From a virus (taxonomy: Duplodnaviria > Caudoviricetes), in IMG/VR virus record IMGVR_UViG_3300006805_000023: a DNA stretch of 64,000 nt, one strand, 5' to 3'. Within the stretch, counting starts at the first letter, position 1. Every line of letters starts with the position of its first letter. Position numbers and translations under genes: made by a program. Below the pieces are notes generated by a model, which saw only the letters and a list, made by a program, of their open reading frames with translations, did not search any database and was not told the origin of the DNA. Below, piece by piece: positions 1,935-8,458 of this stretch.

Positions 1935-4316
1935 CTAAGCCTGGACGGTGGAGCCCTGAACGTCGCGAGCGATGAACTGCTCGACGTCGGCACCGCTTGG
2001 CAGGAGCGTGAAGTCGATCTCGAACGCCTCGGCGGACTTGGTCGGAATCACGTACACCTTGGCTTTGGCAAGGTTCTGATTGCGGACGTCCGGTGTGTTG
2101 GTGTCGGCGTCGCACTTGAGCTGGAACCACTCGATAGCTTCCTGCTGCTTGCGCGTCCGGAAGGCAGGTTCCACGATGTTGAGCCAGTCTTCCCACATCG
2201 TCGGGCCGTTCTGTTCGAAGTTCAGACGGCGGGAAGCCTGACGGACGACTTTGATGAGGTCGAACATCATGCGGCGAACGTTGATGCGGTCCAGCGAGGA
2301 CGCGAAGCGCTGCAGAGTGCGCTGGCCGTAAACCACGACGCCGGTGTCGTTGAACGACGCGATGGCGTTGAGGGCGTTGCCGTTGCCGGGGCCGTACATC
2401 GCGTTGCGATCCTCTTCGGTGGTCGCGTATTCGACAGCCAGGGCGTTTGGCACCTGACCGCGCTGCTCACCAGCTGGGGCGGTCCAGACCTTGCCAACCG
2501 AGTCGTTGTAGGCGAAGACGCCGGGAACGAAGGTGGTAGGCGGCATCCAGAGGTTCTTCTTGGAGTAAGGGTCGTAAACCTTGACCCACGGCCAGTAAAG
2601 GGCGGCCATGTTGGTCGCGAAGGCAGTGTGAAGGCCGGTGTACTCGCCGGTGCCGTTGTGCCAGTCGATGACCTGCTGGAGCGACAGGCCGAATGGCGTG
2701 TCATAGATGCCGAAGCAATCGTAGCGCTTCAGAAGGATCTGAGTGACCTCGTCCAGAACGGCTGCCAGAGTAACTCCAGGAACCGCCAAGATGTTGATGT
2801 CATAGAGATCGACGCGGCGGAAGTGCTGCAGACCAGTGTAGGTGCTGTTCGAGATAGTGCCGATGTACTCGGCGCTCGAAGGATTGGAGCCGTTGTAGCC
2901 CTTGGCGTTGTCGAACACCTGCTGGGACGCCTGAGCGTTGTCGGAGGTGCGGATGGAAGTCTGAGCCCCCATCAAGAAGCGCGGGTTGTTGGGGTGACGA
3001 ACGCGATCGTAGGAGTTTATGGGCTGCTCACCATTGGCACCCAAGTAAGTCGCTGTGACGTATTGGGAGATTGGGTTGGCCTCAGTGCCGACCACTGTGT
3101 CCCAGAAGTTCGGGCTGGCGGGATCGTAGCCGATCACGTTGTCGAACACTTCAACCTGAACACCACGGAACAGGATGCGGACGCGCTTGGTAAGGACTCC
3201 GACTGGGCTCCAGGCGCTGGAGGTGGTCGTCACCGCCGTGCAACGGTAAACAACGCCGAAGCGGTGGCCGGTCGTGGACTCCACGAAGCCGGTTTCGGTT
3301 CCAGGAGTGATCGTGCCAGCGTAGCCGGACACCACAATCGAGGTGCCGTTCGGGATGGCCGTAACTGAGTAGTTGCCGTCGTAAACGGAAGTGCCGGACA
3401 CCTCAATGGTGTCGGCGACCTTGAACTCGGAGCTGTTGGAGACGTTCAGGACCAGACTGCCGGAGCTGTTGGCAACACTGGTGATCGTAGCAGCCGCTGA
3501 GTCGAAGTTAACACCACGAGTCTCGCCAACGCGCACGCCATTGGTGGAGTTGAGAGCGAGCAGATCGAATTTGGTGTCCTTCGAAGGCGCAGCTGGCATG
3601 ACGCCCTGCAGGGGGATACCCTGGCTGGTAATGACGTTGCCCTGAGCATCGAGGTTGGCGAACTGGCCACCGTCTTCGATCAGGACTTCAATGCCCTGGG
3701 AAGATCCGAAGTTGGCGAAGTCGCCAGGATAACGAGCGCGGAACGACAGCAACGGGGTGACCTGACCGTGATGACGGCTCATGACGAACACCTCAGCCGG
3801 AGCTGCGGCGGAGTCATCAGAAGAGTCGATGCGGACGTCGCTGGTGTCCGTGTAGATGTCGAGCAGCTTACTTGCGAAGGTGATGACGAGGCCGGTGATG
3901 TCCGTGATCTGCAGGTTCTGGCTGGTGACCCGGCCAGTCTGGGTGATCTTGACGAAGTCGCCAACGTTGAGGCCATGACCGGTCTGAACGTTGATCGAGA
4001 AGATGTCGCCAGAGGCCTCAGCCTCGCCCATGGAGTCAAACAGAGCGGTTTCCTCGGTGTACACCTTGGCAACGCGGCAGTACCACACCTTCTGACCACG
4101 GCGCAGGAAGTTGATCGCGGCGTGCGGACCGAAGGAGTTGGCAGAGGGCTCGCCAAAGACTCTCAAGAACTGATCAGGAGAGGTGAGCAGGGTGGGCTTG
4201 TTGAGGGGGCCGCGTGCTGCCACGCCGACAAGGGCGAAGATGGTCGTGGCCTGACCGGCGATGTAATCGCTAAAGTCGCGTTCGTTGATGTAAACTCCGG
4301 GGCTAAGGGGCGTCAT
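1935..4316 (-). CDS. contractile tail sheath protein
   Basis: N-terminal LSPGVYINERDFS; C-terminal W.APAG..RG, VVYGQRTL, LDRINVRR and PTKSAEAFEIDF sheath motifs. Confidence 0.95.
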   Translation of the reverse strand: MTPLSPGVYINERDFSDYIAGQATTIFALVGVAARGPLNKPTLLTSPDQFLRVFGEPSANSFGPHAAINFLRRGQKVWYCRVAKVYTEETALFDSMGEAEASGDIFSINVQTGHGLNVGDFVKITQTGRVTSQNLQITDITGLVITFASKLLDIYTDTSDVRIDSSDDSAAAPAEVFVMSRHHGQVTPLLSFRARYPGDFANFGSSQGIEVLIEDGGQFANLDAQGNVITSQGIPLQGVMPAAPSKDTKFDLLALNSTNGVRVGETRGVNFDSAAATITSVANSSGSLVLNVSNSSEFKVADTIEVSGTSVYDGNYSVTAIPNGTSIVVSGYAGTITPGTETGFVESTTGHRFGVVYRCTAVTTTSSAWSPVGVLTKRVRILFRGVQVEVFDNVIGYDPASPNFWDTVVGTEANPISQYVTATYLGANGEQPINSYDRVRHPNNPRFLMGAQTSIRTSDNAQASQQVFDNAKGYNGSNPSSAEYIGTISNSTYTGLQHFRRVDLYDINILAVPGVTLAAVLDEVTQILLKRYDCFGIYDTPFGLSLQQVIDWHNGTGEYTGLHTAFATNMAALYWPWVKVYDPYSKKNLWMPPTTFVPGVFAYNDSVGKVWTAPAGEQRGQVPNALAVEYATTEEDRNAMYGPGNGNALNAIASFNDTGVVVYGQRTLQRFASSLDRINVRRMMFDLIKVVRQASRRLNFEQNGPTMWEDWLNIVEPAFRTRKQQEAIEWFQLKCDADTNTPDVRNQNLAKAKVYVIPTKSAEAFEIDFTLLPSGADVEQFIARDVQGSTVQA

Positions 4317-5174: not shown

Positions 5175-5223
5175 TAGAACTATACTTAGACCCCGACTTC
5201 GAACCGGCCTAGATATTGCCTAC
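5175..5223. promoter_or_regulatory. back-to-back pair of TANNTAT putative late promoters (5182-5188 minus, 5210-5216 plus)
   Basis: Each motif lies exactly 7 nt from the ATG of a divergent gene. Confidence 0.65.
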
Positions 5224-5946
5224 ATGGACCCCTCACAACTCCCTGCTGGGATCGGACAGCACTGGCAGGCCATCCTCAGCTGGATCTTTTTAGTCGCAGC
5301 CGTCATCACAGCCGTAGGCGTCGTTTACGCCAAATTCTTCAAACCAGTGGTCATAAAGAACTTTGTTAAGTATCTGATCACCCCGATCAAGAACCATGTG
5401 GCCGAGGTCAGAGAGAACAACCTCGCTGTCAGGGACATGGTGACGGTCGTTGGCGAGGTTAAGGACATCATTCCGAAACTCAAGCAGGTGTGTAAGATGG
5501 TGATGCCGAACCACGGCTCCTCGCTGCCGGACGGCCTCTCCAGGGTAGAGGCTCAGCTGCTTCAACTGGTGCACCAGATGAGCCAGTCCGAAGCAATTCA
5601 GGAGGCGTTGCTCCTAGATCACCCAAAGGCGGTGTTCATCTCCGACATGGAGAACCGCAACACCTTCGTGAACAAGAAGTACGCAGAGCTGATCCGGTGC
5701 GACCGCGAGGAGCTGTTGGAGCTGGGGTGGAGGACCTACCTGATGCCGAGCGAGCTGCTGGTGTACGACACGATCTGGAAAAGCGCCTTCCGTGAGAGCC
5801 GCGATTCGTTCTTCACTCTCAAGATGCGGACCAAGCGCGGCATGGACGCCGTGACGTTTTCGGTCAAGGTCAGTGTTCTGCGCAGTTCCAACGGGAAGCC
5901 GACAGGTCAGTTCATGGGGATCATGGACGAGGTGGCTGCGGCTTGA
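5224..5946 (+). CDS. membrane-anchored PAS-domain protein
   Basis: N-terminal hydrophobic helix (WQAILSWIFLVAAVITAVGVVYA), coiled coil with PNHGSSLPDGLSRVE, C-terminal PAS-like AVFISD.....FVN..Y......EELL..GW. Confidence 0.75.
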   Translation: MDPSQLPAGIGQHWQAILSWIFLVAAVITAVGVVYAKFFKPVVIKNFVKYLITPIKNHVAEVRENNLAVRDMVTVVGEVKDIIPKLKQVCKMVMPNHGSSLPDGLSRVEAQLLQLVHQMSQSEAIQEALLLDHPKAVFISDMENRNTFVNKKYAELIRCDREELLELGWRTYLMPSELLVYDTIWKSAFRESRDSFFTLKMRTKRGMDAVTFSVKVSVLRSSNGKPTGQFMGIMDEVAAA

Positions 5947-6523
5947 GCGATTCCAATAACTCCGCGAGCGAGCGCACGACCTTGTAGTTGAGCTTACGAT
6001 CTTTGCCGGTGCCGGTGATCCTGAACTTGTCCGGTGTCCAGGCGTTGCTGAAGAAGCTACGAGCGCCCTGACCGATCCGGACTAGCTGGACCAGAATCCC
6101 GTAACGTTGCAGCACCCACTTAAGGTTGATGTTGGCAAGCTGGGTCTTGTTGTGAGCATCAAAGCAGGGCTTGACCTCGATGATGGAGTCGGTGCCGGTG
6201 CGCCAGAAGGTAGGAGGCTCAGACACCTTGTCGGACAGATCAGCCGTCAGCAGCTTGGTAGCCGGTGAGTCCAGGTTCCACACCACTTTGAAGTCTGATG
6301 TGTACACGTGTGCCATGAACATCACCTTGCCAGCGAGCTTGAACTGCGGAGACAACTCCAGGGTAGGGGCGCGCTCGATCCGAGCGATGGCACCGATCCC
6401 AATCAGCTCCTCAAACATCCACCAAGCCCAGCGCTCCTCGTCAGAATCGAAGGTGAGTCCACCCTCTGGAACTGGCTTAGGCTTTGGCTTGGTTACTGGG
6501 AAAACTGGGCTGTCGTCGTTCAC
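5921..6523 (-). CDS. PD-(D/E)xK endonuclease, DUF1064-like
   Basis: FDSDEE...YTSDF...IIEVK motif order. Confidence 0.65.
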   Translation of the reverse strand: MNDDSPVFPVTKPKPKPVPEGGLTFDSDEERWAWWMFEELIGIGAIARIERAPTLELSPQFKLAGKVMFMAHVYTSDFKVVWNLDSPATKLLTADLSDKVSEPPTFWRTGTDSIIEVKPCFDAHNKTQLANINLKWVLQRYGILVQLVRIGQGARSFFSNAWTPDKFRITGTGKDRKLNYKVVRSLAELLESLKPQPPRP

Positions 6524-6827
6524 ACAGAATCAGGTTGAGGAGTGGCAGGGGGCGTGGCTTTCCGTCGTTGCCGGTTAGCGTGACAATATCGGGAGTGACC
6601 TCGGTGATCGTAAGCAGCTCGTTGAACAAAAACACGCGATCTCCCACCTTGTCGGGGAGGTGTAGGTGCCTGATCTTCAGGAGCATGCACATGGTCTTGA
6701 AGGCTAGCACATAGTTGCCGCGCTGAAGATCTGCAGAGGCGGTGCGCTTGGCGAGCTTCCAGGCTTGGTGGACGTCCCTGCATGGCTTCCCAGCTAGGAA
6801 CGCCACAGCGTCTAGGTTTTTGATCAT
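6477..6827 (-). CDS. hypothetical protein
   Basis: Start overlaps the stop of the upstream gene (ATGA coupling). Confidence 0.55.
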   Translation of the reverse strand: MIKNLDAVAFLAGKPCRDVHQAWKLAKRTASADLQRGNYVLAFKTMCMLLKIRHLHLPDKVGDRVFLFNELLTITEVTPDIVTLTGNDGKPRPLPLLNLILCERRQPSFPSNQAKA

Positions 6828-7867
6828 GAGTCGGAAACCAGACGGGCCACACGATCTCTGCCTCCTCCAAGTTTGATGGGGCGGTCTTCCAAGAGGCCGT
6901 CCTCAATGAAGCTGAGCACGTTCTCGACGTCCGATTCAACGATCGCTGGGCTGATCCCTGGAAGCTTCATCCCCACCTCGACCAGAGACTGCGAGTCCTT
7001 GACCAGAGCGTTGATGACGCCACCGGCGGCGGCAGCACGCTTCATCTGCTGGACCGTGGGGAACCTGACCGACATTCCGGCGAACACGTGCATGAGGTGT
7101 CGAGTGTTTTTGACCCCGATGATGTTGATGAGGTCTGGGATGAAAGAGAACTTGGCACCCAGACGCATAACGTCCCCCTCACTGAGCGGCGAAGCAAAAT
7201 GGTCGAGCAGCACGTTACGGACTGCTCCGGTGGTCCAGTCAACCAGAAACTTGGCCTCGTCGAGCCCGATCTCGTATCCGAGACGCAGAGTGTTGAGCAG
7301 GTTACGTCGGTAGTCAACCGAGCGCCCTTCTGAGTCCTTACCACGGGTCTCACCCCTGCGTTCGAGCACCGACACCAGAATCACCCTGATGGCTTCTTGG
7401 ATGTTGGGTTCAGTCCAGCGAGTCTCGATGGCTGAGAGGCATTTCGCGATCGCCTGGCTGTCATCGAGGCGATGGTGCTCAGAAGCGACTGAGCCAAGTA
7501 GGTCGATTGGAGTATCACCAAGATTTTGGAACCTACCACGATAGTTCGACTCGCGAGCCACTAAGCTGATGCAACCATGCTTGGTCGAGGTAGCCGCGTA
7601 GGTGTAGAACTTGCCATCACCGGGACGCCATTTGAGAGCCCAACGGTCGATCTGACTGTACAGATGGGACAGCAGGTCCTCAAACGGGACCGACTGACTG
7701 TAACGGCTTTTCCTGATGATGCTCGACATCAGGTTGGTGAGGTGATCGCAGATCCGGTGAAAGGTCGCAAAGTCGCGGTTGCGCTTAAACAGAAGGCACA
7801 GCTCCTCAACGGTCTCGTTCTCGAAGATCATTTTCTTGCTGGCTGTTGTCGGAACTCTCGGTATCAT
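6824..7867 (-). CDS. sigma-factor region 2-like protein with C-terminal Mor-like segment; candidate late transcription factor
   Basis: FEDLL...KWRPGDGKFYTYA resembles sigma70 region 2.2-2.3; PDLINIIGVKNTRHLMHVFAGMSVRFP resembles the Mor family motif. Confidence 0.55.
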   Translation of the reverse strand: MIPRVPTTASKKMIFENETVEELCLLFKRNRDFATFHRICDHLTNLMSSIIRKSRYSQSVPFEDLLSHLYSQIDRWALKWRPGDGKFYTYAATSTKHGCISLVARESNYRGRFQNLGDTPIDLLGSVASEHHRLDDSQAIAKCLSAIETRWTEPNIQEAIRVILVSVLERRGETRGKDSEGRSVDYRRNLLNTLRLGYEIGLDEAKFLVDWTTGAVRNVLLDHFASPLSEGDVMRLGAKFSFIPDLINIIGVKNTRHLMHVFAGMSVRFPTVQQMKRAAAAGGVINALVKDSQSLVEVGMKLPGISPAIVESDVENVLSFIEDGLLEDRPIKLGGGRDRVARLVSDS

Positions 7868-7997: not shown

Positions 7998-8252
7998 ATG
8001 GAAAAGCTCATAGACGTTGCATTATTGATCCTGGCTGACCTCAACGTCGCCGGGGAAGCTGGACGCATAAAGACGCGGATACTGACACTAGTCAGTGGCA
8101 CCGGGGCGAACCTGGACGAAGTCCTCGATTCGTTGGTCAAACGCGAGTATATGACGATCGTGAAGGTGGCCGGTGCCAGAGCAATCGGCAACAAGCACTT
8201 CATCACGGAACTTGGTCAGAGAGCATTCGTGGAGGCTACCACCAAGCTGTGA
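7998..8252 (+). CDS. small winged-helix-like protein
   Basis: LDEVLDSLVKREY.......HFITELG wHTH wing pattern. Confidence 0.5.
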   Translation: MEKLIDVALLILADLNVAGEAGRIKTRILTLVSGTGANLDEVLDSLVKREYMTIVKVAGARAIGNKHFITELGQRAFVEATTKL

Positions 8253-8458
8253 ACCACGAGTGCCAGTACTGCGGGACGCTCGGAGATCACTCCTTGGCGA
8301 ACTGTCGTAACTGCGGGGCTCCTACCGCTGAAGCGGTCGTGGCAGCACCACCTCCCCAACGCTTCGCGGTAGCGAAAGGACTGCTCCAGGTGGTTCCCGG
8401 AGCAGTCCTCATATTGATCAATGGCTGGAAGCTGATCTCAGTTCTGGTCGGACTCTAA
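8249..8458 (+). CDS. zinc-ribbon protein
   Basis: CQYCG...CRNCGAP; GTGA coupling to the previous gene. Confidence 0.55.
   Translation: MNHECQYCGTLGDHSLANCRNCGAPTAEAVVAAPPPQRFAVAKGLLQVVPGAVLILINGWKLISVLVGL

What the first reader, a model, noticed from the sequence alone, without database searches (positions are those of the whole stretch)
5224..5946. Late-expressed membrane-anchored PAS sensor without an output domain
Seen: one TM helix, a coiled coil with an N(H/G)GSSL.D motif, then a C-terminal PAS fold and nothing else. It is transcribed divergently from the sheath operon behind a TANNTAT site. The TM plus NGGSSL-type motif recalls holin-like proteins of other phages (from memory, not verified). 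Inference: a signal-responsive holin or lysis-timing regulator that links redox, energy state or a ligand to lysis, or a decoy for host PAS kinases.
Basis: partly seen in the sequence, partly recalled or inferred. Interest (0 to 1): 0.7.

Follow-up and report, generated by a model that had tools for sequence, protein, structure and literature searches.

The report
Phage lysis-type membrane protein with PAS sensor
A large uncultured T4-like phage makes a late, membrane-anchored protein whose front half matches small membrane proteins from the lysis gene clusters of other phages and whose back half is a PAS sensor domain, so it may let the phage tie the moment of host-cell bursting to an internal cell signal, although no member has been tested.

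Summary
Window 5224-5946(+) encodes a 240-aa protein under purifying selection (dN/dS about 0.1). It has one N-terminal TM helix (predicted N-out/C-in), a long helix, an invariant loop motif P-N-x-G-x-S-x-x-D-x-x-x-R-x-E, a C-terminal PAS fold (Z 16.1, rmsd 2.0 A) and no output domain. A CTAGATAT box lies 7 nt before the ATG, the same box type as before the sheath and baseplate-hub genes.

New here: the TM-plus-motif module is homologous (hhalign 97%, E 6e-11) to stand-alone 90-185-aa membrane proteins (phrog_9869; they also hit phrog_15431, labelled "holin"). In four of the five actinophages inspected these sit directly beside or one gene from the endolysin, with a multi-TM holin close by.

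About 15 metagenomic clusters share the full TM-motif-PAS architecture. In five of the seven relatives outside the T4-like clade whose surroundings I read, the gene lies next to or one gene from a peptidoglycan-hydrolase or PG-binding gene. Two of these are SAR-type lysozymes, and no other membrane protein was found among their neighbours.

The target itself is not next to a lysis gene, as is usual for T4-like genomes.

Best reading (about 0.5): a holin-type or holin-partner lysis-timing protein whose cytoplasmic PAS domain modulates triggering. No paper describing this was found. Function and ligand are untested.

The parts
5209..5216 (+). CTAGATAT box, 7 nt upstream of the ATG: a late-type promoter-like element (CTANNTAT class).
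   Evidence: There are 10 copies in the window against 3.2 expected, and 0 of 100 shuffles reach 10. All 10 lie 0-22 nt upstream of an ORF start, including the sheath and the baseplate hub. The box and its 7-nt spacing are kept in L004 and L005 and in the L001/L002 alignment. Promoter activity itself is inferred.
5182..5189 (-). Divergent CTAAGTAT box, 7 nt before the ATG (5174) of the 81-aa minus-strand gene. Together with 5209-5216 it forms a back-to-back pair in a 49-bp intergenic gap.
5224..5946 (+). Coding sequence of the 240-aa protein (P0001).
   Evidence: dN/dS about 0.1; 6 close and about 8 distant relatives.
5269..5337 (+). Single transmembrane helix (residues about 16-38), predicted N-out/C-in.
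   Evidence: Hydropathy peak 2.59. The flank before it has no K/R and the flank after it has four. It is helical in both models. The topology is predicted, not measured.
5338..5502 (+). Cytoplasmic helical spacer (residues 39-93).
   Evidence: AlphaFold2 gives one continuous helix at 10-93 with pLDDT 60-77. It aligns with the spacer of the actinophage stand-alone proteins.
5506..5550 (+). Signature loop motif P95-N-H-G-S-S-L-P-D-G-L-S-R-V-E109 (family consensus PNxGxSxxDxxxRxE).
   Evidence: P95, N96, G98, D103, R107 and E109 are invariant in 13 PAS-fused members. The same motif occurs in the 5 actinophage proteins. It is the highest-scoring part of the hhalign match and of the phrog_9869 hits.
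5605..5937 (+). PAS domain (residues about 128-238), the last domain of the protein.

Best explanation
The gene encodes a late membrane protein that takes part in controlling host lysis. It is either a one-TMD, N-out/C-in holin-type protein or the obligate partner or regulator of a holin or SAR endolysin.

The N-terminal module (TM helix, cytoplasmic helix, PNxGxSxxDxxxRxE loop) is the ancestral lysis-cassette unit. It occurs alone in many actinophages and prophages. In this family a cytoplasmic PAS domain has been fused behind it.

The inferred mechanism is that the PAS domain changes the oligomerisation or triggering threshold of the membrane module. It would do so either by binding a cytoplasmic ligand or cofactor that reports the cell's state, or by PAS-PAS association. 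Lysis timing would then depend on a signal from inside the cell. Known parallels are the large soluble regulatory domains of the T4 holin T (periplasmic) and the phiKZ holin gp142 (cytoplasmic).

Shown here: the architecture, the PAS fold, homology of the module, lysis-gene neighbourhood in relatives, and a late-type promoter box.

Inferred: membrane topology, any lysis activity, and any sensing by the PAS domain.
For: 1. Homology of the N-terminal module. The profile of 13 PAS-fused proteins against 5 actinophage proteins gives hhalign probability 97.1%, E 6e-11, over 87 columns from the TM helix to the motif. Distant PAS-fused members hit phrog_9869 directly (P0013 E 3.9e-8; P0015 N-terminal part E 1e-4 over profile positions 7-93 of 98). 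The actinophage proteins are phrog_9869 (down to E 2e-32) and also hit phrog_15431, labelled holin.

2. Where the stand-alone homologues sit.
- Thermobifida P1312_040 overlaps the start of the amidase endolysin.
- Streptomyces TurkishDelight has endolysin, holin, then gp37.
- Arthrobacter Sonali gp22 lies directly before lysin A.
- Streptomyces mu1/6 has endolysin gp50, holin gp51, then gp52.
- The metagenomic P0025 lies three genes after a Peptidase_M23 gene, with a 2-TM protein between.

3. Where the PAS-fused relatives sit.
- P0015 overlaps by 4 bp a lysozyme with an N-terminal hydrophobic SAR-like segment. That lysozyme's best PDB matches are chains 3hde and 3hdf, which from memory are the phage 21 SAR endolysin.
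- P0023 lies one gene before another such lysozyme.
- P0014 lies 18 bp after a CHAP endolysin.
- P0009 lies between a tail protein and a PG_binding_1 protein that hits endolysin PHROGs.
- P0013 is followed by a fragment matching the PG-binding domain of SltB3.
- In L012, L015, L022 and L026 no other membrane protein except the endolysin's own hydrophobic N-terminus lies in the cassette, so the PAS protein occupies the holin slot.

4. Late-type promoter box shared with the sheath and baseplate-hub genes. Holin genes are late genes.

5. Published precedents. One-TMD N-out/C-in proteins in actinophage lysis cassettes are needed for normal lysis (LysF1b, PMC13056207; Gordonia survey, PMC9671378). 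The phiKZ holin gp142 has a large cytoplasmic regulatory domain (PMC12894885).

6. T4-type genomes scatter their lysis genes (established knowledge for T4 e, t, rI, rIII). The lack of an endolysin neighbour here is therefore not informative.
Against: - In the target phage and its four syntenic relatives the neighbours are the sheath, a DUF1064-like gene, a sigma-region-2-like gene, a helicase and ribonucleotide reductase. No lysis gene lies within about 8 kb, and tblastn with 13 lysins found none in the 64-kb window.
- The target's own hit to phrog_9869 is weak (E 0.13). The link rests on profile-profile comparison and intermediate sequences.
- I found no experiment on any phrog_9869 or PAS-fused member. 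The PHROG label 'holin' is an annotation, not a test.
- No significant similarity was found to the tested one-TMD lysis proteins LysF1b (Girr gp35) or Mu releasin gp25.
- P0010 and P0012 have ambiguous surroundings (a serine hydrolase plus a lipoprotein; a weak GH75 hit).
- The neighbourhood sample is small, with 7 PAS-fused contexts read outside the T4-like clade.
- No cofactor signature was recognised. The LOV flavin-binding cysteine position holds an invariant Trp.
Confidence: 0.5

Rival explanations
1. Host-signalling interference. The protein is a membrane-tethered PAS-only protein that pairs with the PAS domains of host membrane sensor kinases or chemoreceptors and blocks or hijacks them late in infection. 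The shared N-terminal module would be only a membrane anchor.
For: The PAS fold is genuine and closest to sensor-kinase, LOV and NifL-type PAS domains. PAS domains commonly form homo- and heterodimers (established knowledge). There is no output domain. The TM, helix, PAS order resembles the sensor part of kinases such as ArcB.
Against: There is no sequence similarity to the ArcB sensor module (hhalign E 0.18 over 15 columns) or to any particular host kinase. The idea does not explain the invariant PNxGxSxxDxxxRxE motif shared with PAS-less lysis-cassette proteins. It does not explain why relatives lie next to endolysins. Late expression is an odd time for host takeover.
Confidence: 0.12
2. Membrane scaffold for late virion assembly or another late membrane function such as superinfection exclusion. 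The protein would be placed beside the tail genes because it acts with them, and the PAS domain would be a protein-binding module.
For: Synteny beside the sheath operon is conserved in five phages. The gene shares the late-type promoter box, back to back with the 81-aa, 191-aa and sheath genes. In several relatives the gene lies at the tail-to-lysis boundary (a tail protein upstream in L022; an adaptor upstream in L012).
Against: In small phages the end of the tail module is exactly where lysis cassettes sit, so that position also fits lysis. The module's homologues lie beside endolysin and holin, not inside tail operons. No structural-protein family hit was found.
Confidence: 0.13
3. Antiholin or releasin-type accessory rather than the hole-former. 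The protein does not make holes. It holds a separate holin or a membrane-tethered SAR endolysin in check, or releases it, with the PAS domain setting the switch. This is a sub-case of the lysis reading, listed separately because the mechanism differs.
For: In actinophages the stand-alone homologue always accompanies a separate multi-TM holin. Two PAS-fused relatives pair with SAR-type lysozymes, which is the setting in which Mu uses a one-TMD N-out/C-in releasin (as described in PMC13056207). The TM helix is plainly hydrophobic, with few polar residues.
Against: There is no detectable homology to Mu gp25 (hhalign E 0.0021, probability 13.6%). In L012, L015, L022 and L026 no second membrane protein that could be the real holin was seen near the endolysin, although the contigs are short.
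Confidence: 0.25

Closest known systems
phrog_9869 / phrog_15431 proteins of actinophage lysis cassettes (for example Streptomyces phage mu1/6 gp52, TurkishDelight gp37, Arthrobacter phage Sonali gp22, Thermobifida phage P1312_040)
   Same: They share an N-terminal single TM helix, a cytoplasmic helical spacer and the PNxGxSxxDxxxRxE motif. Homology is supported by hhalign at 97.1%, E 6e-11. The family is large, with at least 828 clusters at E of 1e-5 or better, mostly in Streptomyces and other actinobacterial genomes.
   Different: They are 90-185 aa, end soon after the motif and have no PAS domain. Most carry an extra (A/P)RPGVPxRPGV repeat that the target lacks. They sit beside the endolysin and a multi-TM holin, which the target does not. 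Sources name all of them hypothetical or membrane protein, and one is mis-named 'sensory protein kinase CreC'. I found no experimental test.
LysF1b of cluster F1 mycobacteriophages (Girr gp35, NBJ gp33; PMC13056207) and the one-TM N-out/C-in proteins of Gordonia phage lysis cassettes (PMC9671378)
   Same: They have one N-terminal TMD, predicted N-out/C-in topology and an extended helical cytoplasmic tail, and they lie in a lysis cassette. LysF1b is genetically required for normal lysis timing and plaque size.
   Different: No significant sequence relation was found (hhalign E 0.058 and 0.3). They have no PAS domain, and their tails are highly charged.
phiKZ gp142, class IIIB holin (PMC12894885), and the T4 holin T (class III)
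   Same: Both are single-TMD lysis proteins of large myoviruses. A large soluble domain receives the regulatory input: cytoplasmic in gp142, where it binds the regulator gp143, and periplasmic in T, where it binds RI.
   Different: Both are N-in/C-out, the opposite of the topology predicted here. There is no sequence similarity (no Phage_holin_T hit even at E of 10). Neither regulatory domain is described as a PAS fold in the papers read.
Mu releasin gp25 (DUF2730)
   Same: It is a 99-aa one-TMD N-out/C-in protein that acts on a SAR endolysin. Two PAS-fused relatives are paired with SAR-type lysozymes.
   Different: The hhalign result is not significant (probability 13.6%). It has no PNxGxS loop and no PAS domain.
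Short PAS/LOV proteins and the PAS sensor modules of membrane histidine kinases (for example RsLOV 4hia, PpSB1-LOV 8q5e, NifL PAS 2gj3)
   Same: The fold matches at Z 14-16 and rmsd 2.0-3.4 A, including an N-terminal helix leading into the PAS core. Like short LOV proteins, the target has no effector domain.
   Different: Sequence identity is 12-20%. The flavin-binding cysteine position of LOV domains holds an invariant Trp. The target is membrane-anchored and phage-encoded.

Membership tests
PAS domain superfamily | Five-stranded antiparallel sheet with the order strand-strand-helices-strand-strand-strand, superposable on solved PAS domains. | tested here: met
   The model has strands at 136-140, 146-149, 195-202, 209-220 and 226-237 with helices between, at pLDDT 80-94. 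Z is 16.1 with rmsd 2.0 A over 109 residues to 8px4, and 728 chains reach Z of 8 or more, with every listed row a PAS or LOV domain.
PAS domain superfamily | Score above the Pfam gathering threshold for a PAS family. | tested here: not met
   For the target, PAS_4 scores 16.8 bits against 23.1 and PAS scores 14.5 against 22.6. The feature is met by homologous family members: P0013 39.2, P0014 37.7, P0015 31.6 and P0010 31.6 bits. The target is therefore a divergent member by transitivity and by fold.
LOV / flavin-binding PAS | Conserved cysteine in the GxNCRFLQ motif and flavin-contacting Asn/Gln residues. | tested here: not met
   In the HMMER alignment to phy3 LOV (1g28), family residue W169 (invariant) stands opposite the LOV cysteine. 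No other cofactor signature was recognised, and the ligand is unknown.
phrog_9869-type lysis-cassette membrane proteins | N-terminal TM helix, helical spacer and PNxGxSxxDxxxRxE motif, alignable as one unit. | tested here: met
   hhalign of A4 against A5 gives probability 97.1%, E 6e-11, over 87 columns. The motif residues are invariant. The direct HMM hit of the target alone is weak (E 0.13), whereas relatives reach E 3.9e-8.
phrog_9869-type lysis-cassette membrane proteins | Gene placed beside an endolysin and/or a holin. | tested here: not met
   For the target and its four syntenic relatives no lysis gene lies within about 8 kb. The feature is met in PAS-fused relatives P0009, P0013, P0014, P0015 and P0023.
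Holin (functional class) | At least one TMD and late expression. | tested here: inconclusive
   One TMD is present. Late timing is inferred only from the CTANNTAT box shared with the sheath and baseplate hub.
Holin (functional class) | Timed lethal membrane permeabilisation that releases or activates the endolysin and can be triggered early by energy poisons. | not testable with these tools
   This needs complementation and uncoupler experiments.
T4 gpt class III holin (Pfam Phage_holin_T) | Sequence membership, and N-in/C-out topology with a periplasmic globular domain. | tested here: not met
   No hit appears in the Pfam scan even at E of 10. The positive-inside rule predicts the opposite topology.
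Mu releasin (DUF2730) and LysF1b | Detectable sequence homology. | tested here: inconclusive
   hhalign gives E 0.0021 at probability 13.6% (Mu gp25 against A5) and E 0.058-0.3 for the other pairs. Single sequences were used on one side, so distant homology is not excluded.
Sensor histidine kinase or other PAS-output proteins | A HisKA/HATPase, GGDEF, MCP or DNA-binding output domain after the PAS domain. | tested here: not met
   The protein ends at residue 240, directly after the last PAS strand. Pfam lists only PAS families.

The most novel reading that the evidence does not exclude
This is a PAS-gated holin (or SAR-endolysin releaser). The phage's lysis clock would carry its own cytoplasmic sensor domain, so that hole formation depends on a metabolite, the redox state or a cofactor inside the infected cell and not only on holin concentration and membrane potential. 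It would be a new class of one-TMD N-out/C-in holins. It would occur from podovirus-like phages with SAR lysozymes up to 218-kb T4-like phages, and would have arisen by fusing a PAS domain to a widespread but uncharacterised lysis-cassette protein.
Probability: 0.3. Interest if true: 0.85.

Novelty: new variant of a known kind. Interest (0 to 1): 0.7.

Why it matters
Known holin clocks are set by holin amount, by membrane potential and, in a few cases, by dedicated phage proteins (T4 RI and RIII, phiKZ gp143). A lysis-cassette membrane protein carrying a PAS domain, the commonest bacterial small-molecule and redox sensor fold, would be a direct route for host physiology to set lysis time. The idea is testable with standard lambda-S complementation and uncoupler assays, with and without the PAS domain.

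The work also gives a first functional lead for a large family (at least 828 clusters) of actinobacterial phage and prophage hypothetical proteins that share the PNxGxSxxDxxxRxE motif. It provides natural test pairs as well: P0015 or P0023 with their adjacent SAR-type lysozymes.

A full-text search for holin, PAS domain and phage lysis together found one paper, and from its title it is unrelated (not read).

Tried and rejected
- **Homodimer prediction.** The cytoplasmic part (residues 40-240, two copies) gave no verdict, score 0.00. This is not evidence either way.
- **ArcB-like sensor module.** TM, leucine zipper and PAS with redox cysteines was considered because C90 and C159 are invariant in the close clade. 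hhalign against ArcB 1-300 found nothing (E 0.18, 15 columns), and the two cysteines are not conserved in the wider family. Dropped.
- **HAMP domain for the helix-loop-helix.** There is no Pfam hit. Not pursued.
- **LOV or flavin sensor.** The cysteine position is Trp. Rejected as a LOV domain.
- **GenBank phages.** There is no nucleotide or protein match to the target or to P0012 and P0015. The PAS-fused form was found only in metagenomic contigs.
- **GTDB genomes and IMG/VR.** Pattern scans found no relative.
- **Whole-genome search for the phage's endolysin or a T-type holin.** This was not possible because no genome is held for the window or for L001. tblastn of 13 lysins against the window and the syntenic loci found nothing.
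- **ESM Atlas search of residues 1-130.** Only generic helical matches, TM below 0.5.
- **P0011.** This 568-aa repeat protein from the profile search is a low-complexity helical repeat, not a relative.

Full report
**1. What is in the sequence**

Window 5224-5946(+) is an open frame of 240 codons. It lies on the plus strand between minus-strand genes.
- On one side are the tail sheath (1935-4316, matching annotated sheath genes), a 191-aa gene (phrog_5417) and an 81-aa gene.
- On the other side are a DUF1064-like gene, a 116-aa gene, a 347-aa protein with a weak sigma-70 region-2 hit, and a helicase.

According to earlier notes of this scan, the genome is a 218-kb T4-like phage from wastewater (not checked here). 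It has no nucleotide match among 50,697 GenBank phage records.

Six relatives at 40-77% identity exist in metagenome assemblies. Three of them (L001, L002, L005) keep the same gene order over 16 kb. dN/dS is 0.07-0.15, so this is a real, constrained gene.

**2. Start and promoter-like box**

The 49-bp gap between the 81-aa gene and the target holds two CTANNTAT boxes back to back. Each lies 7 nt before its ATG.
- The window has 10 such boxes against 3.2 expected, and none of 100 shuffles reaches 10.
- All 10 lie 0-22 nt upstream of an ORF start. These ORFs include the sheath and a gp5-like baseplate hub.
- The box, the 7-nt spacing and the ATG are kept before the relatives in L005 (62% identity) and L004 (40% identity).
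- No Shine-Dalgarno sequence is visible between box and ATG.

Late expression is therefore a reasonable inference, but it is not measured.

**3. Anatomy of the protein**

- Residues 16-38 form a strongly hydrophobic helix. There is no basic residue before it and four after it, which predicts N-out/C-in. Two relatives carry an extra N-terminal hydrophobic segment, which would still leave the C-terminus inside.
- AlphaFold2 with a 13-sequence alignment gives a helix at 10-93, a loop at 94-99, a helix at 100-131 and then a compact domain with pLDDT 80-94.
- That domain is a PAS fold. VIA-align gives Z 16.1 and rmsd 2.0 A over 109 residues to 8px4, and Z 14-15 to RsLOV, NifL, Brucella LOV-HK and ARNT PAS-B. 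Foldseek finds PAS and LOV entries throughout the top of its list.
- The target's own Pfam PAS scores are below threshold, but homologous family members pass.
- The LOV cysteine position is an invariant Trp, and no cofactor signature was recognised.
- The protein stops right after the last strand, so there is no output domain.

**4. The motif leads to a lysis family**

A profile of the region between the TM helix and the PAS domain was searched against 1.84 billion representative proteins. It returned only a handful of hits. Apart from P0003 (already known) and one repeat protein (P0011), they are 220-235-aa proteins with the same architecture. Their motif reads LPNGGSS(L/I/M)xDxxxR(I/L)E.

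In the 13-member alignment P95, N96, G98, D103, R107 and E109 are invariant. The N-terminal parts of these proteins hit phrog_9869, a 98-position family of unknown function.

tblastn with such an N-terminal part, and then with its first hit, found five actinophage proteins of 91-184 aa. Each has a TM helix, a spacer and the motif HE(L/V)xPNxGxS(L/I)(R/K)DAV, and stops soon after it.

Profile-profile comparison of the two sets gives probability 97.1%, E 6e-11, over 87 columns running from the TM helix to the motif. The actinophage proteins score up to E 2e-32 on phrog_9869 and also hit phrog_15431, which PHROGs labels holin.

**5. Gene neighbourhoods**

Stand-alone homologues:
- P1312_040 overlaps the start of the amidase endolysin.
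- TurkishDelight has endolysin, holin, then gp37.
- Sonali gp22 lies directly before lysin A, with a 3-TM protein after it.
- mu1/6 has endolysin gp50, holin gp51, then gp52.
- The metagenomic P0025 follows a Peptidase_M23 gene, a 2-TM protein and a 59-aa gene.
- The Glutamicibacter phage gene follows a minor tail protein. Two genes on lie an unannotated 288-aa protein and a 2-TM protein.

PAS-fused relatives outside the T4-like clade:
- P0015 (18 contigs) overlaps by 4 bp a Phage_lysozyme gene. That protein begins with a hydrophobic, Gly/Ala-rich segment. Its best PDB matches are 3hde and 3hdf, which from memory are the phage 21 SAR endolysin, and RrrD.
- P0023 is followed by a HAD_PNKP-like gene and then another lysozyme with such a segment.
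- P0014 lies 18 bp after a CHAP protein that also hits endolysin PHROGs.
- P0009 lies between a tail protein and a PG_binding_1 protein with many endolysin PHROG hits.
- P0013 is followed by a fragment matching the PG-binding domain of SltB3 (E 7e-4).
- P0010 (serine hydrolase, then a lipoprotein) and P0012 (a 1-TM protein, a 76-aa protein and a weak GH75 hit) are ambiguous.

In L012, L015, L022 and L026 I found no other small membrane protein near the endolysin, so the PAS protein occupies the usual holin position. These contigs are short and the sample is small. This is a pattern, not a statistic.

**6. The target's own context**

No lysis gene lies within about 8 kb in any of the five syntenic phages. 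tblastn with 13 lysins of different types found nothing in the 64-kb window. The rest of the genome could not be searched. T4 itself scatters e, t, rI, rIII and the spanin genes (established knowledge), so the absence carries little weight. It does mean that the lysis role of this particular gene rests on homology alone.

**7. Comparison with what is known**

- Pollenz and co-workers describe one-TMD N-out/C-in proteins in actinophage lysis cassettes. They show genetically that LysF1b is needed for efficient lysis and for uncoupler-triggered lysis (PMC13056207, PMC9671378).
- The Young laboratory showed that the phiKZ holin gp142 has one TMD and a large cytoplasmic domain that binds a regulator (PMC12894885).
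- The protein studied here shares the logic of these systems: a single TMD plus a soluble regulatory domain.
- It has no detectable sequence relation to LysF1b, to Mu releasin or to T4 T.
- The stand-alone motif family is large, with at least 828 clusters, almost all named hypothetical and mostly from Streptomyces and relatives. I found no test of any member.
- A full-text search for holin, PAS domain and phage lysis together returned one paper, unrelated by its title (not read).
- BFVD holds a few PAS-domain proteins of uncultured phages of 170-205 aa that may be related. They were not followed up.

**8. Verdict**

The most likely function (about 0.5) is control of lysis, either as a holin-type protein or as a holin or SAR-endolysin partner, with a cytoplasmic PAS domain as the regulatory input.

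Whether it forms holes, what the PAS domain binds, and the role of the invariant loop are all unknown. The rivals are host-signalling interference and a late membrane scaffold. Neither explains the shared motif or the endolysin neighbours.

I rate it a new variant of a known kind, namely phage lysis-timing membrane proteins with soluble regulatory domains. It is directly testable by standard assays.

Noticed in passing
window 5175-5223 and nine other sites (323, 4339, 5182, 21094, 22349, 32599, 38687, 55070, 61823): CTANNTAT boxes lie 5-7 nt (22 nt for the sheath) before start codons with no visible Shine-Dalgarno sequence between. If the box is a -10-like late promoter element, these late mRNAs would be leaderless or nearly so. 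Two boxes lie back to back in the 49-bp gap upstream of the target.
   Followed up: partly
window 8249-8458 (+): A 69-aa protein has an N-terminal CxxC...CxxC zinc-ribbon-like part and a C-terminal TM helix. Genes of 67 aa occupy the same position in L002 and L005. Function unknown.
   Followed up: no
window 6824-7867 (-): A 347-aa protein has a sub-threshold Sigma70_r2 hit (E 5.6e-4, 20.1 bits against a cut-off of 24) and lies three genes from the target.
   Followed up: partly
window 5921-6523 (-): A DUF1064-like 200-aa gene (24.3 bits against a cut-off of 24.7) converges on the target, and the two 3' ends overlap by 26 nt.
   Followed up: no
L006 4683-5126 (Thermobifida phage P1312, P1312_040): This gene is annotated 'sensory protein kinase CreC' in GenBank. 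It is in fact a 147-aa one-TM protein of phrog_9869 that overlaps the start of the amidase endolysin, so the name is probably wrong.
   Followed up: yes
L012 6693-7247 and L026 1356-1889: The lysozymes beside the PAS-fused relatives have hydrophobic Gly/Ala-rich N-termini, like SAR endolysins, and no separate pinholin-like gene was seen nearby.
   Followed up: partly
L018 1142-2004: Downstream of P0010 lie a 215-aa Ser_hydrolase-type protein (22.6 bits against a cut-off of 22) and a 73-aa protein with a lipobox-like LTSC. These may be an esterase-type lysin plus a spanin-like lipoprotein.
   Followed up: no
actinophage proteins P0016-P0018 and P0020 (alignment A5): A conserved D(D/Q)WxGxP(A/P)RPGVPxRPGV(M/I)ER proline-rich repeat lies between the TM helix and the motif. 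It is absent from the PAS-fused family.
   Followed up: no
BFVD hits A0A6J5QVN9, A0A6J5NY05, R9ZZL0 (Cellulophaga phage phi19:1), S0A2B2: Phage proteins of 170-240 aa align structurally over helix plus PAS (Foldseek E 1e-9 to 2e-4). They may be further helix-PAS phage proteins. Their sequences and gene contexts were not examined.
   Followed up: no
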